64,000 bases of DNA, from positions 1 through 64,000 of the forward strand of contig JAYZAL010000026.1 in assembly GCA_036339735.1 (NCBI GenBank), read 5' to 3'. Source of the DNA: Candidatus Poribacteria bacterium. Lineage in GTDB: Bacteria; Poribacteria; WGA-4E; UBA9662. The first letter of the stretch is position 1. The number at the start of each line of letters is the position of its first letter. The notes under the pieces were generated by a model. That model ran no database searches and was not told the origin of the DNA. It worked only from the letters and a program-made list of their open reading frames with translations. The position numbers were made by a program, and so were the translations under genes. Positions 28,373 through 36,663 of the stretch are shown in pieces.

Positions 28373-29422
28373 ATGAAAAATAAGATTCGATTCGGTATTA
28401 TTGGCATTGGTGGTACTATTGGTGGTACAGCTAAAATTTTAGCGAATGAGACAGAAGCGGAGTTAGTAGCGCTAGCTGACCCAGACCCAACTCGCCGAGC
28501 ACGTATTCTAGACGAAACACAAGGCGTCGAAACTTTTGATGACTACAAGATAATGTTACAAAAAGTTCAGCTTGATGCGGTTTGTATAGGTCTGCCAACC
28601 TGGATGCATGCATCTGCGACTCAGGATGCACTAGAATCTGGCTTACATGTCCTCTGTGAAAAACCACCTGCCAATAATGCAGAAGAGATGAAGCCCTTGG
28701 CTCGATTGGCATCAGATAAAAATCTGTCCTGTATGTTCGTTCGTCAATCACGCTTTACTCCACAACTGATGGAAGGGCGACGTTTAGTTGCCAGTGGTGA
28801 ATTAGGCGATGTTTATTATGTAGATACTCGTTGGGTTCGTACTCGGTGGTGTTCAGCTAAGGGTTGGAGACATGACAAGGCGAAAGGTGGAGGTGTTTTG
28901 CTAGATTTAGGCATTCATGCTATCGATAATGCTTGGTTTATGATGGGTTGTCCTAAACCGATAGAAGTTACTGCGGGGTTGTACAACGCTTTTTCAGATT
29001 TAGCACCAGATGGACAAACTTATACTGCCGATGATGCAGCTTGTGGTTTGATACGATTCGACAATAATTGTGTCTTACATTTTACTGTTGCTTTCTCGCT
29101 TAATACGGCTGACGGAAAAACCTCGGAAGATAATCAACCAATCACAACTGAATATCAACGTGTTAGTTTACATGGGACAAAGGGTGGATTAGAAGATGGA
29201 TGTCAGTTAATCGGTACTGCTCAGGGGGTTGAAGTGAAACCTATCGACACATCAGCCTATAGTGGTGATGCCGTTACTTTACAAACCCGTGAATTCATTC
29301 GGTCAATTAAAGAAGAAGATCAACCACTCAATTCTGCCGATCAAGCCGTCATGTTGATGCAGATGCTAGATGGAGCTATGGAATCGAGTGATACTCGATG
29401 TGCGGTAGCAATTGAAGAGTGA
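28373..29422 (+). CDS. Gfo/Idh/MocA family oxidoreductase
   Basis: RFGIIGIG; HVLCEKP; GGGVLLDLGIHAID. Confidence 0.9.
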   Translation: MKNKIRFGIIGIGGTIGGTAKILANETEAELVALADPDPTRRARILDETQGVETFDDYKIMLQKVQLDAVCIGLPTWMHASATQDALESGLHVLCEKPPANNAEEMKPLARLASDKNLSCMFVRQSRFTPQLMEGRRLVASGELGDVYYVDTRWVRTRWCSAKGWRHDKAKGGGVLLDLGIHAIDNAWFMMGCPKPIEVTAGLYNAFSDLAPDGQTYTADDAACGLIRFDNNCVLHFTVAFSLNTADGKTSEDNQPITTEYQRVSLHGTKGGLEDGCQLIGTAQGVEVKPIDTSAYSGDAVTLQTREFIRSIKEEDQPLNSADQAVMLMQMLDGAMESSDTRCAVAIEE

Positions 29423-29507
29423 CAAAGCTATGTGATATCATTCCGTTCACTGTTGTTTTTCGACTGAATCGGCAATCAATTTTTTCAATTCTATTTCAGG
29501 AGTTTTT

Positions 29508-29897
29508 ATGGCTATTTTCCTCCACACCCGTATTCGCGTTAGTGATTTAGACCAGTCTATCAAGTGGTATCAAGACCATCTTGGATTTCAAGTGATTAGT
29601 AGAAGTGATAAATCACCCGCAGGTAACCAAATTGTTCACCTAGAGTTACCTGGTAATGACCACACTCTAGAGCTAACTTACTCCGAAGATTATGACGTAA
29701 ATGTGCCAGAAGACCTGATGCACTTTGCAATTGGTGTACCTGATTTGATTGCTTTCTGCGACCAATTAGAAAATGAAGACGTAGAAATTTGGCCTAGCGA
29801 TTGGCGCCAGACCTTCCCTACAGGACGTAAAATGGCATTTATCGACGATCCAGACGGATACGAGGTTGAACTGCTAGAGCGCGCTGAAGAAAACTAA
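29508..29897 (+). CDS. VOC family protein (lactoylglutathione lyase/glyoxalase I-like)
   Basis: FLHTRIRVSDLDQSIKWY; LELTY; HFAIGV; FIDDPDGYEVEL; AGGAG RBS. Confidence 0.9.
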   Translation: MAIFLHTRIRVSDLDQSIKWYQDHLGFQVISRSDKSPAGNQIVHLELPGNDHTLELTYSEDYDVNVPEDLMHFAIGVPDLIAFCDQLENEDVEIWPSDWRQTFPTGRKMAFIDDPDGYEVELLERAEEN

Positions 29898-29902
29898 GTC
29901 TT

Positions 29903-30835
29903 TTGAATTCGCCATTTACTAGTTCGTTTTCCTCTCTTTTAACTGAACAGGAAAATGAAGATTCAGTCGACATTGACTTAAAATCGAGTACTGAAATTGT
30001 TTCAATCTTCCAGAAAGAGGATCAAAAGGTGCTGTCTGCTGTTGAAGAGCAGGCTTCCGCTATTGCGACTGCTATTGATATGGTGGTGATGGCCTTTCGA
30101 AATGGTGGACGACTTCTCTACATGGGAGCAGGAACTAGTGGCCGGTTAGGTGTATTAGATTCTTCAGAATGTCCACCAACATTCAATACTGAACCAGGTC
30201 AAATCCAAGGACTAATTGCTGGGGGGGACCAAGCTTTACGCCGATCAGTAGAAACAGCCGAAGATAGCCAGAAAATGGGGAGCCAGGTCATCCGGGACAA
30301 CTCAGTCTCTAACGTTGATATCGTAGTAGGCATTGCTAGCAGTGGACGGACACCTTACGTTTTGGGCGGACTAGAACAAGCTCATCTGCTTCGAGCCCAA
30401 ACTATTCTTATATGTTGTGTTCCCTCTAGTCCAAGTGATGCCGATATTAATTATATTGACCATTATATTCGACCCCAGGTTGGTCCAGAAATTATTACAG
30501 GTTCAACTCGTCTCAAGGCAGGAACAGCCACTAAGTTAGTTTTAAATATGTTGACGACCGGAGCTATGATTCAAACAGGGCACGTTTACGGTAACTTGAT
30601 GGTCAATATGCAAGCAAGCAATAGTAAAATCAGAGATAGGGCAATACGGACTGTAATGAGTGTTACTGGCTGTGAACGACCAACAGCGGAGTCTGCTTTA
30701 AATCAGGCTGATGGGCGTGTGAAGGAAGCGATTGTCTGCTTGATTCGGGGAGTCGATGTGTCAATAGCGACCGGATTATTAGAGGCGGAAAATGGCTTTT
30801 TACGGCCTGTTTTAGCCAACCCAGATTCCAGCTAA
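29903..30835 (+). CDS. murQ: N-acetylmuramic acid 6-phosphate etherase
   Basis: GAGTSGRLG; ECPPTF; GIASSGRTPYV; VGPEIITGSTRLKAGTATKLVLNM. Confidence 0.95.
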   Translation: MNSPFTSSFSSLLTEQENEDSVDIDLKSSTEIVSIFQKEDQKVLSAVEEQASAIATAIDMVVMAFRNGGRLLYMGAGTSGRLGVLDSSECPPTFNTEPGQIQGLIAGGDQALRRSVETAEDSQKMGSQVIRDNSVSNVDIVVGIASSGRTPYVLGGLEQAHLLRAQTILICCVPSSPSDADINYIDHYIRPQVGPEIITGSTRLKAGTATKLVLNMLTTGAMIQTGHVYGNLMVNMQASNSKIRDRAIRTVMSVTGCERPTAESALNQADGRVKEAIVCLIRGVDVSIATGLLEAENGFLRPVLANPDSS

Positions 30836-30847
30836 TTTCAGCCCAAA

Positions 30848-31354
30848 TTATCTTTTGGGCTGAAGAACCAATCGATAACGCGCTGTGTCATAGGCTAATT
30901 GATCTTTAGTAGACAACTGAATTGGTGGTGTCTCTCCGTTAATTAAGAACTCCTCCCCTTTTTGTGGGTACCTTTGAATGTAGCGAAGACGTAATTCATT
31001 CCAAGGCATTGACGTCCAATCAGGACTTCCTGGTTGGCCTAAGTCTTCTTGTAAATCGTAGATGCCATAATAATTATTGGGGTTTTCAAAGAAATACGTC
31101 AGTAATTTATCACAGTCAGCTAGGCGATAGTGAGTTCCCCACCCTTCATTCCGTGCTAATGGTAAGCTACTAGATGATTTGGAATTAGTTGGGAGAAGGT
31201 GATTCGTTGTTCTCTCTACTTCGTTTGTATTTGGTGATTGAGTGCTTATCAATTCGCTGCTTTTGTTCAAATTGAGCCTAATTATCAGAGAGATAATACT
31301 AACAACCAACAATAAAATGCCTATAATAAAAAGGCGAACATGCTTGATTTTCAC
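30848..31354 (-). CDS. Hypothetical protein with N-terminal membrane anchor
   Basis: GTG start after AGAGGA RBS; single N-terminal hydrophobic helix followed by a Ser/Thr-rich linker. Confidence 0.7.
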   Translation of the reverse strand: MKIKHVRLFIIGILLLVVSIISLIIRLNLNKSSELISTQSPNTNEVERTTNHLLPTNSKSSSSLPLARNEGWGTHYRLADCDKLLTYFFENPNNYYGIYDLQEDLGQPGSPDWTSMPWNELRLRYIQRYPQKGEEFLINGETPPIQLSTKDQLAYDTARYRLVLQPKR

Positions 31355-31403: not shown

Positions 31404-32135
31404 TTGAAAATTGCTTACTTCGATTGCTTTTCTGGTATTAGTGGAGACATGACACTAGGTGCTCTAGTCGATGTTGGAGTTGATCCTCAACATATTACAG
31501 AAGAGTTAACTAAACTCAATGTAAATAATGAATTTACTTTGACTTTTGAACATACGAAAAAACAGGGGATTTCCGGTACAAAAGCCTCGGTGAATCAAAC
31601 GAAAGATTGCCATCATAGTCGTCATCTGACTGATATTTTTTGCTTATTGGACGAAAGCAAATTAGATGAAAAAATAATCGGTCAGTCGAAAAAAATTTTT
31701 GATCGGTTAGCTACAGCAGAGGCTACTGTTCATCAGATGCCCAAGTCAGAAGTTCATTTGCATGAAGTTAGCGCGATCGATTCAATTGTTGATATTGTTG
31801 GTTCGGTTATCGCTTTAGATATATTGAATGTTGAAAAAGTATTTGCTTCACCGATTTCGGTTGGTACCGGATTCGTTCGTTGCTCTCACGGACTAATGCC
31901 GGTTCCAGTGCCAGGAACAATGGAATTGTTGAAGGACGTTACAATTCGACAGACCCAAATCCGAAAAGAACTAGTCACACCAACAGGGGCAGCAATTGTT
32001 ACTACATTAGCTGCTGGTTTTGGGCCAATGCCAGAATTGACGGTCATGCAAACGGGTTACGGTGCTGGTAGTCGGGATCTACCTGATACACCAAATCTCC
32101 TTAGGGTCATTATCGGAGAAAAAAAAACGGCTTAA
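31404..32135 (+). CDS. larC: Nickel pincer cofactor biosynthesis protein LarC, N-terminal part (LarC1)
   Basis: KIAYFDCFSGISGDMTLGAL; AEATVH; VHLHEVSAIDSIVDI; HGLMPVPVP; ELVTPTGAA; GYGAG; PNLLRV. TTG 31404 has GGAG 8 nt upstream. Confidence 0.93.
   Translation: MKIAYFDCFSGISGDMTLGALVDVGVDPQHITEELTKLNVNNEFTLTFEHTKKQGISGTKASVNQTKDCHHSRHLTDIFCLLDESKLDEKIIGQSKKIFDRLATAEATVHQMPKSEVHLHEVSAIDSIVDIVGSVIALDILNVEKVFASPISVGTGFVRCSHGLMPVPVPGTMELLKDVTIRQTQIRKELVTPTGAAIVTTLAAGFGPMPELTVMQTGYGAGSRDLPDTPNLLRVIIGEKKTA
32119..32127 (+). other. A9 slippery tract (A_AAA_AAA); candidate -1 recoding site joining larC1 to larC2
   Basis: GAA AAA AAA ACG GCT TAA in frame 0; the -1 frame reads AAA AAA AAC GGC TTA ATC CCG GGA AAA ACC CAA ATG with no stop into larC2. 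Confidence 0.75.
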
Positions 32136-32152
32136 TCCCGGGAAAAACCCAA

Positions 32153-32608
32153 ATGTCGTCTCTAATTGATCAGATTGTGGTCATCGAAACGAACGTAGAC
32201 GACCAGTCAGCTGAAATTACGGCCTGGGTTATGGATCAACTGCTCGCAACTGGAGCTTTAGATGTTTTCTTAACGCCCATACTAATGAAAAAAGGTAGAC
32301 CCGCCACTAAAATAACAGTCCTTTCAACAATAGAACAACAATCTGCATTAACTCAATTACTTCTACAACAAAGCACCACTTTTGGTGTTCGCTCTTATTT
32401 AGCAGATCGTCAGAAACTCTCCCGAGATTTTATTGAAGTAGAAACTGAATGGGGGATAGTAAAAGCTAAGCGTGGATTTTTGAATGACTCCATCACGAAA
32501 ATTGTGCCCGAATACGAAGATTGTAGACGGCTAGCAGAAGCCAATCAAGTCCCACTGCGAACCGTCTACGAGACCGTTATACAGGAAATCAAACTAGATG
32601 AAAATTAG
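32153..32608 (+). CDS. larC: LarC C-terminal part (LarC2)
   Basis: IETNVDD; GALDVFLTPILMKKGRP; TTFGVR; VETEWGIVKAK; PEYEDCRRLA. Confidence 0.92.
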   Translation: MSSLIDQIVVIETNVDDQSAEITAWVMDQLLATGALDVFLTPILMKKGRPATKITVLSTIEQQSALTQLLLQQSTTFGVRSYLADRQKLSRDFIEVETEWGIVKAKRGFLNDSITKIVPEYEDCRRLAEANQVPLRTVYETVIQEIKLDEN

Positions 32609-32630: not shown

Positions 32631-34142
32631 TTAGAAAGTACTAGCTTTATTAGTAGAAGTACACCACCGCATGGTCATCAGATGATCAATCAGTACACTT
32701 TTGGCTTCTGGTGTACCAATATACTTCAACGCTTCAACTCCATACCCACGTACGTAGCGGTCATTATCCTTTAATGCATCCTTCAGTGCGGGGACTGCCT
32801 CTTCCGCAACTGGACCTATTCGAGCTAAGGATAAAGCTGAGGTAAACCGAGTCTGCTTATCTTCATCTTTAACAAGCGCCCTGGCTAAAGCAGGTACTGA
32901 TGTATCAGTGTTTCCTTGAATAATACCTAGTGCTTCAACCACATTTCGACGAATATTCACTGACTCGTCGTCTAACAAAGAAACCAAATTTGGTACCGAG
33001 TCAACTGCATCTATTTCGCCTAAAATGTAGGCTGCATAACCTCTAGTATCAGCTGATTTGTGATTAAGTAATTCAGTTACTCTTTCTTCTACTACCGAAC
33101 CAACTGCGGTTAAAGCATAAGCTGCATGACGTCGAACCGTTTCGTTTTCGTCTTGCAAAGCATTGGTTAATGGTTCGATAGATTCCGTGCCGATTGCACC
33201 TAAAGCATAGGCTGCATTCAAACCAACGGGTTCAGATGGATCCTTTAGAGATTGGATTAAAGTCGAGATCGCTTCACTTCCATTTTCTCCTAATGCACCT
33301 AGACGATTAGCTGCTTCTATCCGTTCTGGTTGGGTACCAATACGCAAAGCATTAATCCATTTACTAATTTCGACTTCGGTAGCCGAAGCTACTGTTTTAT
33401 CTTCACCTCGTCCACTGGACCAATTCCATAAGTGGTGCCACATAATACTTTGATCGTTTAACAACTGAGAATCGGATGGTGGGCACCAGTCTGTATCCTG
33501 ATTATTCCAAGTTGGAATCGTTGGCGGTTTCATCCGAATAAATTCGAATTTGAGCATGTAACGGGTCAAGTCAGTTTGATTTGCTGTGGCTTGATGCCAC
33601 AAATCATAATGTATAATTGCCATGGTGCCAGCTTCACCAACGGCCGAAAACTTAGTTTCAGATGAGTCTTGTTGTCGAGAAAGATAATACGGACTTCCCG
33701 GCATGACAGCTGTCGGACCGATCTCAATCGGTGTGTCTTGTGGGTAATAAAATGCCATGGCCCACCAAGTACGATGATTACGAACTTTGCCGTATCCCCA
33801 GTAACTATCTTTATGCCAACCACCACCACTACTTCCAGAGCGATTCGTATGTGGATGTCGATGTGGATGCATCATATAATTAGGCCCAATGACACTGGTG
33901 AAAGCTCCACGTACAGTTGGGTGGTTAAACACATCTTGAATTTCTGGTACTCGCGGCAGTAGATTATTACCGGGATTGCCATCCATATCGACAACTTCAT
34001 CTAGTTTTTGATAAATTGTGTCATGAATGCTCTTAGGCAAATCTGGTTTAATAATCACGAAGCCATTAGTCAAAAACTCACGCATTTGCTCATCAGTGAA
34101 CAAGTCATCAGAACTAATAGGGGGTAAATTTGTATCAACCAT
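32631..34142 (-). CDS. PhyH dioxygenase fused to C-terminal HEAT repeats
   Basis: N-terminal GFVII, WHKD, GPTAVMPGS, HYDLWH; then about seven repeats such as AAYALGAIG, VRRHAAYAL, AAYILGEI, SALSLARIG. Confidence 0.9.
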   Translation of the reverse strand: MVDTNLPPISSDDLFTDEQMREFLTNGFVIIKPDLPKSIHDTIYQKLDEVVDMDGNPGNNLLPRVPEIQDVFNHPTVRGAFTSVIGPNYMMHPHRHPHTNRSGSSGGGWHKDSYWGYGKVRNHRTWWAMAFYYPQDTPIEIGPTAVMPGSPYYLSRQQDSSETKFSAVGEAGTMAIIHYDLWHQATANQTDLTRYMLKFEFIRMKPPTIPTWNNQDTDWCPPSDSQLLNDQSIMWHHLWNWSSGRGEDKTVASATEVEISKWINALRIGTQPERIEAANRLGALGENGSEAISTLIQSLKDPSEPVGLNAAYALGAIGTESIEPLTNALQDENETVRRHAAYALTAVGSVVEERVTELLNHKSADTRGYAAYILGEIDAVDSVPNLVSLLDDESVNIRRNVVEALGIIQGNTDTSVPALARALVKDEDKQTRFTSALSLARIGPVAEEAVPALKDALKDNDRYVRGYGVEALKYIGTPEAKSVLIDHLMTMRWCTSTNKASTF

Positions 34143-34172
34143 TGTTTTAATTCTCCAGTATTTAAATTTAGA

Positions 34173-35663
34173 TCAATTTACTGCACCTTCTATTACTTGG
34201 TCAACCGCAGTTTTCCAGCCAGCCAACTTCTCTTGTCGAAGAGATGTGCTCATGGAAGGCGTAAAAACTTGGTCCACTTTTCGGTACTTTTCGAGTTCAG
34301 CTACATCACTCCAAACACCGACGGTTAGTCCGGCCAGATAAGCAGCACCAAGAGCCGTTGTTTCAACCTGCTGAGGGCGTTCAACTGGTCGATCTAGCAG
34401 GTCTGCTTGGAACTGCATGAGAAAATTATTATTAACTGCACCGCCATCTACTTTCAGGTAGTCGAAAGGTAGATTCGCTTCTGCTGCCATTGTCTGTACA
34501 ACATCGACTGTTTGATAGGCTATTGATTCGAGTGTGGCCCTTACTATCTCTGCTCTCCCAATACCACGAGTAAGATTAACAATTGCGCCTCTAGCTGACG
34601 ATTGCCAATAGGGTGTTCCCAAACCAGTAAAAGCGGGCACAACATAGACACCACCGGTGTCTTTTATGCTGTTAGCTATTTGCTCCGTTTCCTGAGCGGT
34701 CTCGATGATTTGTAATTCATCTCGCAACCACTGAATAGCGGCACCTGCTATAAAAACACTTCCCTCTAAAGCGTACGATTTCTGATCAGAAGTAGAGCAG
34801 GCTAAAGTCGTCAATAATCCAGACGAGGACGTCATCCGCTGATTACCAGTTTGCATTAACAAAAAACAACCAGTTCCATACGTATTTTTGATACTACCAG
34901 CTTGTGTACAAAGTTGGCCAAAAAGGGCTGCCTGTTGATCCCCTGCTATACCTGCAATAGGAACTTGGTCAGGTAGACCAACAACACCTTTTGTTGTACC
35001 GAACTGACATCTAGAAGGATATACCTCAGGGAGCATAGGAGCAGGAATCCGAAACAAATCAAGGAGATCAGGAGACCATTTTAATTGATCAATATCAAAC
35101 AGTAACGAACGAGAAGCATTGGTTTCGTCTGTTGCGTGAACTAATCCATCTGTTAGGTTCCAGAGCAACCAAGTATCGATTGTGCCAAAAGCTAACTGTC
35201 CTTGATGAGCTTTTTGGCGATTAACGTCCACTTGGTCTAGAATCCAAGCAATCTTAGTTGCAGAAAAGTATGGGTCTACTACTAGCCCGGTTTTTTGTCG
35301 AACCCACCCCTCGTGCCCATCCAATTTTAGCTGAGAACACATGTCAGTAGTTCGCCGACATTGCCAGACTATAGCGTTGTAGACTGGCTGCCCAGTTTGA
35401 CGATCCCAAACCACTGTCGTTTCCCTTTGGTTAGTGATTCCAACGCCAACGAAATTTCTATCAGATCGAGTTAGTTGAATAATCAGTTTCTGTGTTATTT
35501 GCCAAATTTCGATTGGGTTGTGTTCTACCCAACCAGGCCGTGGGTAGATTTGTGTAAATTCACTGTAAGCCCGATCGACAATTCGGCCATTAACGTCAAC
35601 TACCAGTACGGTTGTACCAGTTGTTCCTTGATCTATAGAAAGAATATAGTCGGCAGTCGCCAT
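34173..35663 (-). CDS. glpK: Glycerol kinase
   Basis: SIDQGTTGT; GITNQRETTVVWD; NAIVWQCRRT; GDQQAALFGQ; KNTYGTGCF; YALEGSVF; VDGGA. Confidence 0.96.
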   Translation of the reverse strand: MATADYILSIDQGTTGTTVLVVDVNGRIVDRAYSEFTQIYPRPGWVEHNPIEIWQITQKLIIQLTRSDRNFVGVGITNQRETTVVWDRQTGQPVYNAIVWQCRRTTDMCSQLKLDGHEGWVRQKTGLVVDPYFSATKIAWILDQVDVNRQKAHQGQLAFGTIDTWLLWNLTDGLVHATDETNASRSLLFDIDQLKWSPDLLDLFRIPAPMLPEVYPSRCQFGTTKGVVGLPDQVPIAGIAGDQQAALFGQLCTQAGSIKNTYGTGCFLLMQTGNQRMTSSSGLLTTLACSTSDQKSYALEGSVFIAGAAIQWLRDELQIIETAQETEQIANSIKDTGGVYVVPAFTGLGTPYWQSSARGAIVNLTRGIGRAEIVRATLESIAYQTVDVVQTMAAEANLPFDYLKVDGGAVNNNFLMQFQADLLDRPVERPQQVETTALGAAYLAGLTVGVWSDVAELEKYRKVDQVFTPSMSTSLRQEKLAGWKTAVDQVIEGAVN

Positions 35664-35709
35664 CTGATTTTACGTGCTAGGGCTAAAATACCCCTTCGGC
35701 TGGTTAAAT

Positions 35710-36663
35710 CTAGCTGGAAAGCTGGCCCACAGGATTAGATAAGGTACCAAAACCAGCAATCTCAATTTGTACCAAATCGCCATCTGCTAACGGCAGGTCA
35801 GATGGAGTTATGATACCGGTTCCCGTAGAAACGACTGTACCCACAGGAACCGGGTTATGTCTCACGAGGTATTCAGTTAATTGCTCAAATTTCCAGTTGA
35901 TCTGATTAGTATTGACTTCTCCCTGATAAATCAATTCGTCGTTCCGTATTATACGACATTTAATATCCAGATCATATGGATTATCTACTTCCGATACCGT
36001 TAATAGCATTGGCCCTAAGGCACAACAACCAGCATAAATTTTGGACTGAGGTAAATAAAGTGGGTTTTCCCGTTCAATATCCCAAGCTGAAACATCATTA
36101 CAAATAGTATAACCGACGATTTCACCATCCCGTCCGAGGATATATGCTAATTCAGGCTCTGTTGCAGTGAAGGTTGAGTCACTGCGAATACCAATTGTGC
36201 CCCCAGAGCCAACACAACGCTCAGATGTAGCCTTGAAAAATAGCTCAGGTCGATCAGAGTTATAAACCTGACTGTAGATATCTGATTGGCTATCATCATC
36301 TCGCATATCAGCGCTCCGCTTGTAGGTAACACCAAAGGCCCAGACTTCTGGTGCATCAATAGGAGCAAGGAGATGAGGTAGATCGGAACTAGGAGGGTTA
36401 TCAAGCTGAGAGAGCTTTAGTTTACCATTTGTACTCGTTTCTTTCTGATCCAAAGCGATGGAAGGTTGCGGAGAATTGACGGATAGCTGTTCCTGAATAT
36501 CAGCTAAGATGATTCCTAGGCTAATACCTTCTTCAATGGAAACTTTCAATAAATCAAGTACTGTTGAAGATTCCTCAGTAGTCACGTCCACGATCTCATT
36601 TTCTCGTGTAACAACACCTACCCGCTTGCCTTTTTTCGGTAAATGATATTGGATCAGCTTCAT
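35710..36663 (-). CDS. Fumarylacetoacetate hydrolase family protein (2-keto-3-deoxypentonate dehydratase-like)
   Basis: EVWAFGVTYKRS; RPELFFKAT; PELA; GYTICNDVSAWDIERENPLYLPQSKIY; STGTGI. Confidence 0.88.
   Translation of the reverse strand: MKLIQYHLPKKGKRVGVVTRENEIVDVTTEESSTVLDLLKVSIEEGISLGIILADIQEQLSVNSPQPSIALDQKETSTNGKLKLSQLDNPPSSDLPHLLAPIDAPEVWAFGVTYKRSADMRDDDSQSDIYSQVYNSDRPELFFKATSERCVGSGGTIGIRSDSTFTATEPELAYILGRDGEIVGYTICNDVSAWDIERENPLYLPQSKIYAGCCALGPMLLTVSEVDNPYDLDIKCRIIRNDELIYQGEVNTNQINWKFEQLTEYLVRHNPVPVGTVVSTGTGIITPSDLPLADGDLVQIEIAGFGTLSNPVGQLSS

What the first reader, a model, noticed from the sequence alone, without database searches (positions are those of the whole stretch)
31404..32608. 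larC split into two ORFs joined by an A9 slippery tract with an open -1 frame: likely recoding
Seen: LarC1 ends ...GGA GAA AAA AAA ACG GCT TAA with nine consecutive As (32119-32127). The LarC2 ORF is in the -1 frame, which is stop-free from the A run to ATG 32153 (KKNGLIPGKTQM). An AGGG lies 13 nt upstream of the heptamer; only weak hairpins follow (CGG-N7-CCG, GGG-A5-CCC). Established: Lactobacillus plantarum larC is expressed as a LarC1-LarC2 fusion by frameshifting, and an A9 run drives transcriptional slippage in Thermus thermophilus dnaX. Inference: this distant lineage keeps recoding at the LarC domain boundary, giving both short LarC1 and full-length nickel insertase, by -1 ribosomal frameshift or RNA polymerase slippage.
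Basis: partly seen in the sequence, partly recalled or inferred. Interest (0 to 1): 0.8.

Follow-up and report, generated by a model that had tools for sequence, protein, structure and literature searches.

The report
Conserved poly-A recoding site in larC
The nickel-insertion gene larC of this marine Poribacteria-like genome is split by a run of nine A's that must be slipped over to make the whole enzyme, a trick already known for this gene in lactobacilli and here kept across dozens of species.

Summary
An A9 run (32119-32127) ends the LarC1 frame, and LarC2 follows in the -1 frame. Together the two ORFs cover the whole Pfam LarC model with nothing missing.

It is not an assembly error. DNA contigs of the genus show A9 in 7 of 7. 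The same genome reads through 76 other runs of 9 or more bases in frame.

It is conserved. 34 related species in 13 genera keep an A9 (27) or A10 (7) run at the same linker codon, always with LarC2 in -1. Their closest named relatives are Candidatus Poribacteria MAGs. LarC2 is under purifying selection (dN/dS about 0.08-0.15), and 27 of 34 have no start codon for it downstream of the run.

Lactiplantibacillus plantarum and Lacticaseibacillus paracasei larC1/larC2 carry an A10 run with a -1 offset at the same domain junction. L. plantarum recoding is published, and Antonov et al. 2013 list this Pfam family (then DUF111) as a programmed-frameshift family.

So this is a new member of a known kind. 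Recoding is about 87% likely. I favour RNA polymerase slippage (about 52%) over -1 ribosomal frameshifting (about 35%). One of four RNA-library contigs shows A10, without matched DNA.

The scan noted split larC before, but not this site.

The parts
31404..32135 (+). LarC1 reading frame (nickel-binding/insertion domain): TTG start, zero-frame stop TAA 5 nt after the A-run
   Evidence: One search aligns it to M. thermoacetica LarC chain residues 19-255, with the His cluster and acidic-pocket residues named in PMC13510736 all matched.
32119..32127 (+). A9 run, the recoding site; it lies at the first codons (G-E-K-K) of the flexible LarC1-LarC2 linker
   Evidence: Conserved as A9/A10 in 34 species. 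Lys codons in the run are never AAG, although the AAG share elsewhere in LarC2 of g8 is 42%.
32105..32608 (+). -1 frame open stretch that encodes the rest of the linker and the CTP-binding LarC2 domain, ending at TAG 32606-32608
   Evidence: One search aligns it to L. plantarum LarC2 (6bwo, E 2.6e-35) and to M. thermoacetica LarC residues 265-405.
32153..32155 (+). ATG in the LarC2 frame; a possible but unconserved internal start
   Evidence: absent in G001, G002 and most other recoded genomes; also absent in metagenome contigs L156 and L157.

Best explanation
larC here is one gene whose full-length product needs a programmed shift into the -1 frame inside the A9 run at the start of the interdomain linker. 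Standard decoding gives LarC1 alone, which stops two codons after the run. A fraction of expression events give the roughly 401-residue LarC1-linker-LarC2 cyclometallase. I think the main route is RNA polymerase slippage on the T9 template, which adds one A to the mRNA (A10) so that ordinary translation runs into LarC2. A -1 ribosomal slip on the in-phase A_AAA_AAA heptamer probably contributes a smaller share. Shown: the site, its conservation, the purifying selection on LarC2 and the lack of a start codon. Inferred: that a fusion protein is made, which route makes it, and that the LarC1 to full-length ratio is the selected trait. Recoding by either route: about 0.87. The confidence given below is for RNA polymerase slippage as the main route.
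For: Recoding as such:
- 34 species in 13 genera keep A9 (27) or A10 (7) at the same codon after PNLLRxxxG, and LarC2 is in -1 in 34 of 34. A 35th genome (G047) shows the same junction beside a stretch of N.
- LarC2 dN/dS is 0.08-0.15 at dS 0.6-1.7.
- 27 of 34 have no ATG/GTG/TTG between the run and the ETN-DD motif, and 22 of 34 have none anywhere in the open -1 frame before it. In 18 of 34 (17 of 18 g8, g13, and G166) the -1 frame opens only inside the run, because a TAA or TGA overlaps its start.
- The three run codons are AAA in 19 of 19 g8/g13 species, while 4 of 6 invariant-Lys columns elsewhere mix AAA and AAG.
- DNA of the genus is A9 in 7 of 7 contigs.
- 76 other runs of 9 or more are read through in frame in the same assembly.
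- No full-length protein above 71% identity to this LarC2 exists among 5.8 billion predicted proteins.
- The pathway partners are present: LarE at 318 bits, a second AIRC (LarB-like) ORF and a weak Lar_N hit.
- L. plantarum and L. paracasei larC1/larC2 have GAA AAA AAA AAC TAA (A10) with LarC2 in -1. PMC13510736 states that the stop is bypassed by programmed frameshifting.
- PMC3711429 measured up to 39% in an E. coli reporter for the DUF111 cluster.

For polymerase slippage as the main route:
- The run is never shorter than 9, although a ribosomal slip needs only 7.
- No conserved stimulator was found. Downstream 70-nt folds have z between -1.2 and +1.3 in 32 of 34, and there is no conserved SD-like box at about 10 nt.
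- One RNA-library contig (X15, 1160 nt, depth 21.9) carries one extra A.
- In PMC3711429, efficiency in a sister case rose with run length (7 A 10%, 9 A 40%, 11 A 63%).
Against: - Three of the four RNA-library contigs over the run (X16 one contig, X17 two contigs) show A9.
- The A10 contig differs from the window at 10 other places and has no matched DNA, so it may simply be an in-frame strain. RNA libraries can also hold DNA.
- In-frame alleles of otherwise recoded lineages do exist in assemblies: P0001, P0002 (g3-like) and P0003 (g11/g15-like).
- Contigs cannot show minor variants.
- The shift direction is always -1, which a ribosomal -1 slip explains at least as naturally.
- The A10 variants contain the classical A_AAA_AAG or A_AAA_AAC heptamers.
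- The L. plantarum literature calls the event ribosomal. I could not read the primary paper, so I do not know how that was shown.
- 76 other runs of 9 or more bases sit inside intact genes of this genome, which argues that slippage at such runs is not very efficient or is tolerated.
- No protein evidence for the fusion exists for this organism.
Confidence: 0.52

Rival explanations
1. The same programmed recoding, but the main route is -1 ribosomal frameshifting: tandem Lys-tRNAs slip back on A_AAA_AAA (or A_AAA_AAG / A_AAA_AAC in the A10 variants), and the mRNA stays A9.
For: An in-phase heptamer is present in 34 of 34 genes. The direction is always -1. Five A10 genes end in AAG, which gives the E. 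coli dnaX-type heptamer. PMC13510736 (passages read) describes L. plantarum LarC as made by programmed ribosomal frameshifting. Three of four RNA-library contigs are A9.
Against: Any run of 9 A's contains the heptamer in every phase, so phase says nothing. No run of 7 or 8 occurs among the 34 recoded genes, although that would suffice. No conserved downstream hairpin (z about 0 in 32 of 34) and no SD-like box at about 10 nt. The GGAG directly before the run in two site types is too close for the known -1 stimulator and is absent in g8. Efficiency rose with run length in PMC3711429.
Confidence: 0.35
2. Two separate polypeptides: LarC1 and LarC2 are translated independently (LarC2 from ATG 32153 or a non-canonical start) and assemble non-covalently. 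The A-run is only a scar.
For: G000 has ATG 32153 and GTG at +49. Stand-alone LarC1 genes exist in other phyla (earlier notes e1-736927 and e1-1157488). Three Poribacteria genomes have an in-frame TGA in the linker. PMC3711429 saw internal initiation alongside frameshifting in some clusters.
Against: 27 of 34 lack any canonical start downstream of the run, and 22 of 34 lack one anywhere in the open frame. ATG 32153 is missing in both congeners. A scar would not keep 9 or more uninterrupted A's at dS 0.6-1.7. PMC13510736 reports that deleting, shortening or stiffening the covalent linker sharply lowers activity in the M. thermoacetica enzyme. No promoter-like excess inside the gene (5 found, 4.0 expected).
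Confidence: 0.05
3. DNA-level phase variation: replication slippage switches the run between A9 (off) and A10 (on) within populations, and the gene is simply off in the sequenced majority.
For: Homopolymers mutate fast. One contig from an RNA library has A10. In-frame alleles P0001-P0003 exist in assemblies for two other recoded lineages.
Against: 34 of 34 species representatives and 7 of 7 DNA contigs of this genus are out of frame, always by the same offset; random switching should leave a good share in frame. LarC2 stays under strong purifying selection. LarC is a housekeeping cofactor-maturation enzyme, not a surface antigen.
Confidence: 0.04
4. Decaying gene: a frameshift mutation has inactivated larC.
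For: G047 (g8) shows extra breaks in LarC1, so decay can happen in this group.
Against: dN/dS is 0.08-0.15 in LarC2 across recoded lineages. All catalytic residues named in PMC13510736 are matched in LarC1. There is no second lesion in the window's gene.
Confidence: 0.02
5. Homopolymer assembly or sequencing error: the true run is A10.
For: The genome is a 107-contig draft. Homopolymers are error-prone on some platforms.
Against: Independent DNA contigs agree on A9. Two congeners and 31 other species, drafts and single-contig genomes alike, share the offset. 76 other runs of 9 or more are in frame in this assembly, and this is the only split.
Confidence: 0.02

Closest known systems
Lactiplantibacillus plantarum larC1/larC2 (LarC, CTP-dependent nickel cyclometallase of nickel-pincer cofactor synthesis)
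   Same: Same enzyme family. Same place, the start of the LarC1-LarC2 linker. Same type of site: an A10 run (GAA AAA AAA AAC TAA) with LarC2 in the -1 frame, read by me in an L. plantarum plasmid and in L. paracasei pW56. The zero-frame stop also comes just after the run. PMC13510736 says the stop is bypassed by a programmed ribosomal frameshift.
   Different: Different phylum. A9 rather than A10 in the window (A10 occurs in 7 of the 34 relatives). LarC1 here lacks the long His-rich insert (243 versus 271 residues). No experiment exists for this lineage. larC here is not next to larB/larE.
GeneTack 'DUF111' programmed-frameshift cluster (Antonov et al. 2013, PMC3711429)
   Same: DUF111 is the old name of PF01969; that equivalence is recalled, and no call shows it. 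The paper names it as one of four new families with programmed frameshifts. It was chosen from clusters rich in A-rich heptamers and reached up to 39% in an E. coli GST-MBP reporter (sections read).
   Different: The member species and exact sites are in Supplementary Table S2, which I could not open, so I cannot say whether any Poribacteria-like genome or an A9 site was included. The paper does not decide between ribosome and polymerase for this cluster.
Thermus thermophilus dnaX A9 transcriptional slippage
   Same: A run of nine A's in the coding strand. Extra or missing A's in the mRNA give a second product from one gene (as cited in PMC3711429, section 23).
   Different: There the shifted product is the shorter one (gamma). 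Here the shifted product is the longer, complete enzyme. Slippage is shown by experiment there and only inferred here.
Escherichia coli dnaX A_AAA_AAG -1 ribosomal frameshift
   Same: An A-rich X_XXY_YYZ heptamer and the -1 direction. The A10 variants in g10, g16 and g22 contain exactly A_AAA_AAG.
   Different: dnaX uses an upstream SD-like box and a downstream hairpin (recalled). Neither is conserved here.
Magnesium chelatase poly-A recoding cluster (PMC3711429; chlD, PMC9227772 listing only)
   Same: A metal-insertion enzyme split at a domain boundary by a poly-A run, with a -1 shift, and with fused homologues in other taxa. Efficiency scales with run length.
   Different: An unrelated protein family.

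Membership tests
LarC (PF01969 Ni_insertion; NCBIfam nickel_LarC1 + nickel_LarC2) | N-terminal LarC1 domain over the curated cut-off | tested here: met
   PF01969 positions 1-237, 309.5 bits. TIGR00299, 209.4 bits against a cut-off of 90.
LarC (PF01969 Ni_insertion; NCBIfam nickel_LarC1 + nickel_LarC2) | C-terminal CTP-binding LarC2 domain | tested here: met
   positions 243-375, 158 bits. NF052512, 145.7 bits against a cut-off of 50; 6bwo, E 2.6e-35.
LarC (PF01969 Ni_insertion; NCBIfam nickel_LarC1 + nickel_LarC2) | His cluster and acidic pocket shown to be essential in the M. thermoacetica enzyme (H72, H108, H116, H118, H160; D15, R71, E104, E119, D124, D128, E187, per PMC13510736) | tested here: met
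   In the alignment (chain number = native number + 18), every one of these positions is matched by the same residue in the window's LarC1.
LarC (PF01969 Ni_insertion; NCBIfam nickel_LarC1 + nickel_LarC2) | Nickel insertion activity; presence of the pathway partners LarB, LarE and a LarA-type user | tested here: inconclusive
   LarE at 318 bits. A second AIRC-domain ORF of 262 aa, LarB-like by length only. Lar_N at only 33.7 bits. Activity cannot be tested here.
Recoded larC (L. plantarum larC1/larC2; DUF111 frameshift cluster) | Two overlapping frames that together make one complete LarC, broken in the interdomain linker | tested here: met
Recoded larC (L. plantarum larC1/larC2; DUF111 frameshift cluster) | Poly-A slippery run at the break, with the second frame at -1 | tested here: met
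   The same holds in the Lactobacillaceae records.
Recoded larC (L. plantarum larC1/larC2; DUF111 frameshift cluster) | Conservation of site and offset across species, with the downstream frame under selection | tested here: met
   34 of 34. dN/dS 0.08-0.15. Run codons never AAG.
Recoded larC (L. plantarum larC1/larC2; DUF111 frameshift cluster) | Fusion protein actually produced | not testable with these tools
   Needs proteomics or a reporter assay.
-1 programmed ribosomal frameshift, bacterial dnaX type | X_XXY_YYZ heptamer in the zero-frame phase | tested here: met
   A_AAA_AAA at 32120-32126. This is trivially true for any A9 run.
-1 programmed ribosomal frameshift, bacterial dnaX type | Conserved stimulators: an upstream SD-like box at about 10 nt and/or a downstream hairpin or pseudoknot | tested here: not met
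   z of the downstream 70 nt lies between -1.2 and +1.3 in 32 of 34 (mononucleotide shuffles, a rough control). The upstream 30 nt share no purine box across site types.
Programmed transcriptional slippage (T. thermophilus dnaX, IS elements, Shigella mxiE/spa) | Homopolymer A or T run of about 8-9 or more | tested here: met
   The run is A9 or A10 in 34 of 34 and never shorter.
Programmed transcriptional slippage (T. thermophilus dnaX, IS elements, Shigella mxiE/spa) | Run length heterogeneous in RNA but fixed in DNA | tested here: inconclusive
   1 of 4 RNA-library contigs has A10. DNA has A9 in 7 of 7. These are contigs only, the strains differ, and there is no matched DNA.

The most novel reading that the evidence does not exclude
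The out-of-frame state is an ancient, actively maintained device that sets the ratio of free LarC1 to full-length LarC. It has survived more than one substitution per synonymous site in several Poribacteria orders, although a single-base gain in a hypermutable run would fuse the gene. The same site type in Lactobacillaceae arose by shared descent, by transfer or by convergence. This would mean that free LarC1 has a function of its own, for example nickel storage or delivery, or filling LarC1 positions around the LarC2 hexamer. The natural in-frame alleles (P0001-P0003, and genera g2, g6, g7, g4, g9) would then be a ready-made comparison set.
Probability: 0.3. Interest if true: 0.6.

Novelty: new member of a known kind. 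Interest (0 to 1): 0.42.

Why it matters
Annotation pipelines call these loci two genes or a pseudogene. In at least 35 Poribacteria species representatives, the essential last enzyme of nickel-pincer cofactor synthesis would then be mis-scored as broken. The case extends a recoding event studied only in L. plantarum to an uncultured sponge- and seawater-associated phylum. It also shows that the same linker codon is used in both groups. Closely related recoded and in-frame lineages occur side by side, so the question of why LarC is made by slippage becomes testable. The 2026 cryo-EM structure (a LarC2 hexamer flanked by LarC1 trimers, with an essential linker) gives that question a structural frame.

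Tried and rejected
- Papers not held. The primary L. plantarum recoding paper (PMC6093250) and four related papers (PMC10626555, PMC8962377, PMC4066177, PMC11925681) were not in the library. How 'ribosomal' was established there is therefore unchecked.
- Papers without relevant text. PMC11796402 has no text on frames. The held part of the Atkins et al. 2016 review (first 300,000 characters) does not mention LarC, DUF111 or nickel.
- Closed supplements. Supplementary Table S2 of PMC3711429, with the species and sites of the DUF111 cluster, could not be opened.
- In-print check. No paper in the library holds Poribacteria together with LarC, lactate racemase or nickel-pincer. The two papers that hold Poribacteria and frameshift (listing only) are unrelated.
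- Local element scans. Rfam gave only a sub-threshold CRISPR-DR24 hit at 33229-33263 (E 0.79), which is chance. The promoter and terminator scan showed no excess.
- Gene tree. Only the quick tree finished: 140 columns, many open forks, 8 changes at least, and a single origin not excluded. I draw no order of events from it. Three outgroup loci were dropped because my motif did not find LarC2.
- Parsing misses. My motif parser missed 2 of 29 uninterrupted relatives (G038, G031). They are counted as uninterrupted only.
- Script error. One search had a walk-back error for g8. One search replaces it.
- RNA cover. Parts of the gene without RNA-contig cover in X15-X17 carry no meaning.
- Other phyla. 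In the 80-locus sample, the two other frame changes are not this phenomenon. L116 has a stretch of N. L140 shifts inside LarC2 at a T-run.
- Earlier scan notes. The first six-word look-up found nothing.
- Not attempted. No structure or complex prediction was run, because the family assignment was already unambiguous.

Full report
**What is there.**
- The window has nine consecutive A's at 32119-32127, in the context GGA GAA AAA AAA ACG GCT TAA.
- The upstream frame most likely starts at TTG 31404, because MKIAYFDC aligns with the first residue of M. thermoacetica LarC. It matches Pfam PF01969 positions 1-237 of 375.
- The frame one base back is open from 32105 to TAG 32606-32608 and matches positions 243-375.
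- NCBIfam names the two halves nickel_LarC1 and nickel_LarC2.
- Nothing of the domain model is lost, so a single-base offset inside the run separates two intact halves.
- The run sits on the G-E-K-K codons that open the flexible interdomain linker.

**It is not an artefact.**
- The window is contig 26 of a 107-contig draft of 4.32 Mb with 40.6% G+C.
- Twenty public runs from 14 studies of marine or seawater metagenomes hold the stretch.
- A DNA-run contig of 4213 nt (X1) has A9.
- A pattern scan of metagenome contigs that allowed A8 to A11 found three contigs, all A9.
- Two other species of the genus have A9. With the window, that makes 7 of 7 DNA contigs, although some may share a source with the window.
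- Genome-wide there are 154 homopolymer runs of 9 or more bases. Under a crude open-frame test, 76 lie inside long intact frames and only the larC run has the split-gene signature. The assembly therefore has no general homopolymer problem.

**Conservation.**
- Named MAGs closest to this LarC1 (54-63% identity) are titled Candidatus Poribacteria.
- In the window's order, 156 of 159 species genomes have PF01969. Of these, 33 have it in two or more pieces, 3 have a single in-frame TGA, and 120 are uninterrupted.
- I read the junction in 32 of the 33 split genomes, plus two split genomes from other orders of the same class.
- All 34 have an A-run at the same codon after the PNLLRxxxG motif, and LarC2 lies in the -1 frame in all 34.
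- Three site types occur:

| Site type | Run | Genera |
|---|---|---|
| GGN GAA AAA AAA ACG/AGC | A9 | g1, g3, g11, g12, g14, g15 |
| GGT/GGC AAA AAA AAA NNN | A9 | 18 species of g8, and g13 |
| GAA AAA AAA AAG or AAC | A10 | g10, g16, g21, g22 |

- The 33rd split genome (G047) shows the same junction beside a stretch of N, and it has further breaks in LarC1.
- Uninterrupted relatives encode a similar G-E/K-K-K stretch at this spot, but with broken runs of 4-8 A's such as GAG AAG AAG. None of the 27 parsed (of 29) has 9 or more.

**The downstream half is expressed and needs the shift.**
- LarC2, from the ETN-DD motif to the stop, has a median dN/dS of 0.08-0.15 within and across recoded groups, at dS 0.6-1.7.
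- 27 of 34 have no ATG, GTG or TTG between the run and the conserved motif. 22 of 34 have none anywhere in the open -1 frame before it.
- In 18 of 34 (17 of the 18 g8 species, g13, and G166) a TAA or TGA overlapping the start of the run closes the -1 frame, so that frame can only be entered inside the run.
- ATG 32153 of the window is absent from both congeners and from two of the three metagenome contigs.
- In g8/g13 the three Lys codons of the run are AAA in 19 of 19 species. Elsewhere in LarC2 42% of Lys codons are AAG, and 4 of 6 invariant-Lys columns mix both. The constraint is therefore on the nucleotides.
- A one-base gain in such a run is an easy mutation. Even so, no full-length protein above 71% identity to this LarC2 is found among 5.8 billion predicted proteins.
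- The genome also has LarE (318 bits), a second AIRC-domain ORF of LarB-like length and a weak Lar_N hit. The pathway that needs LarC therefore appears to be present.

**Relation to what is known.**
- PMC13510736 (passages read) states three things. L. plantarum LarC1 (1-271) and LarC2 (272-412) are distinct frames. Their stop is bypassed by a programmed ribosomal frameshift. In the M. thermoacetica enzyme the linker's length and flexibility are essential.
- I read the DNA in an L. plantarum plasmid and in L. paracasei pW56, both annotated as two genes. Both read TTC GAA AAA AAA AAC TAA, an A10 run with LarC2 in -1. This is the same type of site at the same LarC1/LarC2 domain junction as in Poribacteria.
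- PMC3711429 (sections read) had already named the DUF111 cluster as one of four new programmed-frameshift families. DUF111 is the former name of this Pfam family; that equivalence is recalled and not shown by any search. The paper measured up to 39% in an E. coli reporter.
- The finding is therefore a new member of a known kind. No paper in the library links Poribacteria with LarC.
- In a sample of 80 LarC loci from many phyla, only the two Poribacteria loci with A10 show this junction. Of the rest, 66 are uninterrupted and 9 have LarC1 without a nearby LarC2. One has an in-frame stop that I did not examine. Two frame changes have other causes.

The evidence is indirect.
- For RNA polymerase:
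  - the run is never shorter than 9, although a ribosomal slip needs 7;
  - there is no conserved downstream structure (z between -1.2 and +1.3 in 32 of 34, mononucleotide shuffles) and no conserved SD-like box;
  - efficiency rose with run length in the magnesium chelatase case of PMC3711429;
  - one contig from a metatranscriptome library (X15, 1160 nt, depth 21.9) has one extra A.
- Against RNA polymerase:
  - the other three RNA-library contigs over the run have A9;
  - the A10 contig is another strain (10 other differences) without matched DNA;
  - in-frame alleles of two other recoded lineages exist in assemblies (P0001-P0003);
  - the direction is always -1;
  - the A10 variants hold classical heptamers;
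  - 76 other long runs sit in intact genes.
- I put recoding at about 0.87. Within that, polymerase slippage as the main route is 0.52 and ribosomal slippage is 0.35.

**Evolution.** A quick LarC2 tree scatters the recoded rows along the backbone. It needs at least 8 changes and does not exclude a single origin. The careful search did not finish, so I make no claim about the order of events.

**Verdict.** It is a real, conserved recoding site, but it belongs to a family in which recoding is already in print.

Noticed in passing
L149 (G093), L150 (G090), L151 (G064), in the linker about 70 nt after the PNLLR codons: Three Poribacteria species (two of genus g4, one of g18) have larC in a single frame but with one in-frame TGA in the linker, after a His-rich stretch (..KHAHDH*VSE..). 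This is a second way of splitting or recoding the gene at the same domain boundary. An earlier scan note (e1-1157488) describes a similar TGA in another lineage.
   Followed up: partly
P0001, P0002, P0003: Full-length LarC proteins from assemblies have linkers that are exactly what a frame-restoring change at the run would encode in g3-like (P0001, P0002) and g11/g15-like (P0003) genes. Whether they come from DNA variants or from RNA-derived contigs could not be checked.
   Followed up: partly
L155 (G047, genus g8): The same KKK/-1 junction is visible, but LarC1 is in three pieces and the locus contains a stretch of N. This may be decay or a poor assembly.
   Followed up: partly
L085, L103, L104, L108, L112, L135 (Entotheonella-like) and L122, L127, L128 (Peptococcaceae-like): LarC1 has no LarC2 within 1.2 kb. 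In the four loci I read (L085, L103, L122, L127), LarC1 runs into a His-rich tail, followed by a stop in three of them. These look like genuinely stand-alone LarC1 genes. L128 ends at its contig end, so it says nothing.
   Followed up: partly
L140 (Chloroflexia MAG) and L129 (Deltaproteobacteria MAG): L140 changes frame inside LarC2 at a short T-run, probably a sequencing error. L129 has one in-frame stop, which I did not examine.
   Followed up: no
G000 whole genome: There are 154 homopolymer runs of 9 or more bases (139 of them A or T) in 4.32 Mb, and 76 lie inside long intact frames. These genes would be exposed to the same slippage and could serve as internal controls.
   Followed up: partly
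window 28373-31354 and 32631-36663: larC stands alone. Its neighbours are unrelated ORFs on both strands, and LarE and the LarB-like ORF lie on other contigs. The neighbours were not scanned against any family library.
   Followed up: no
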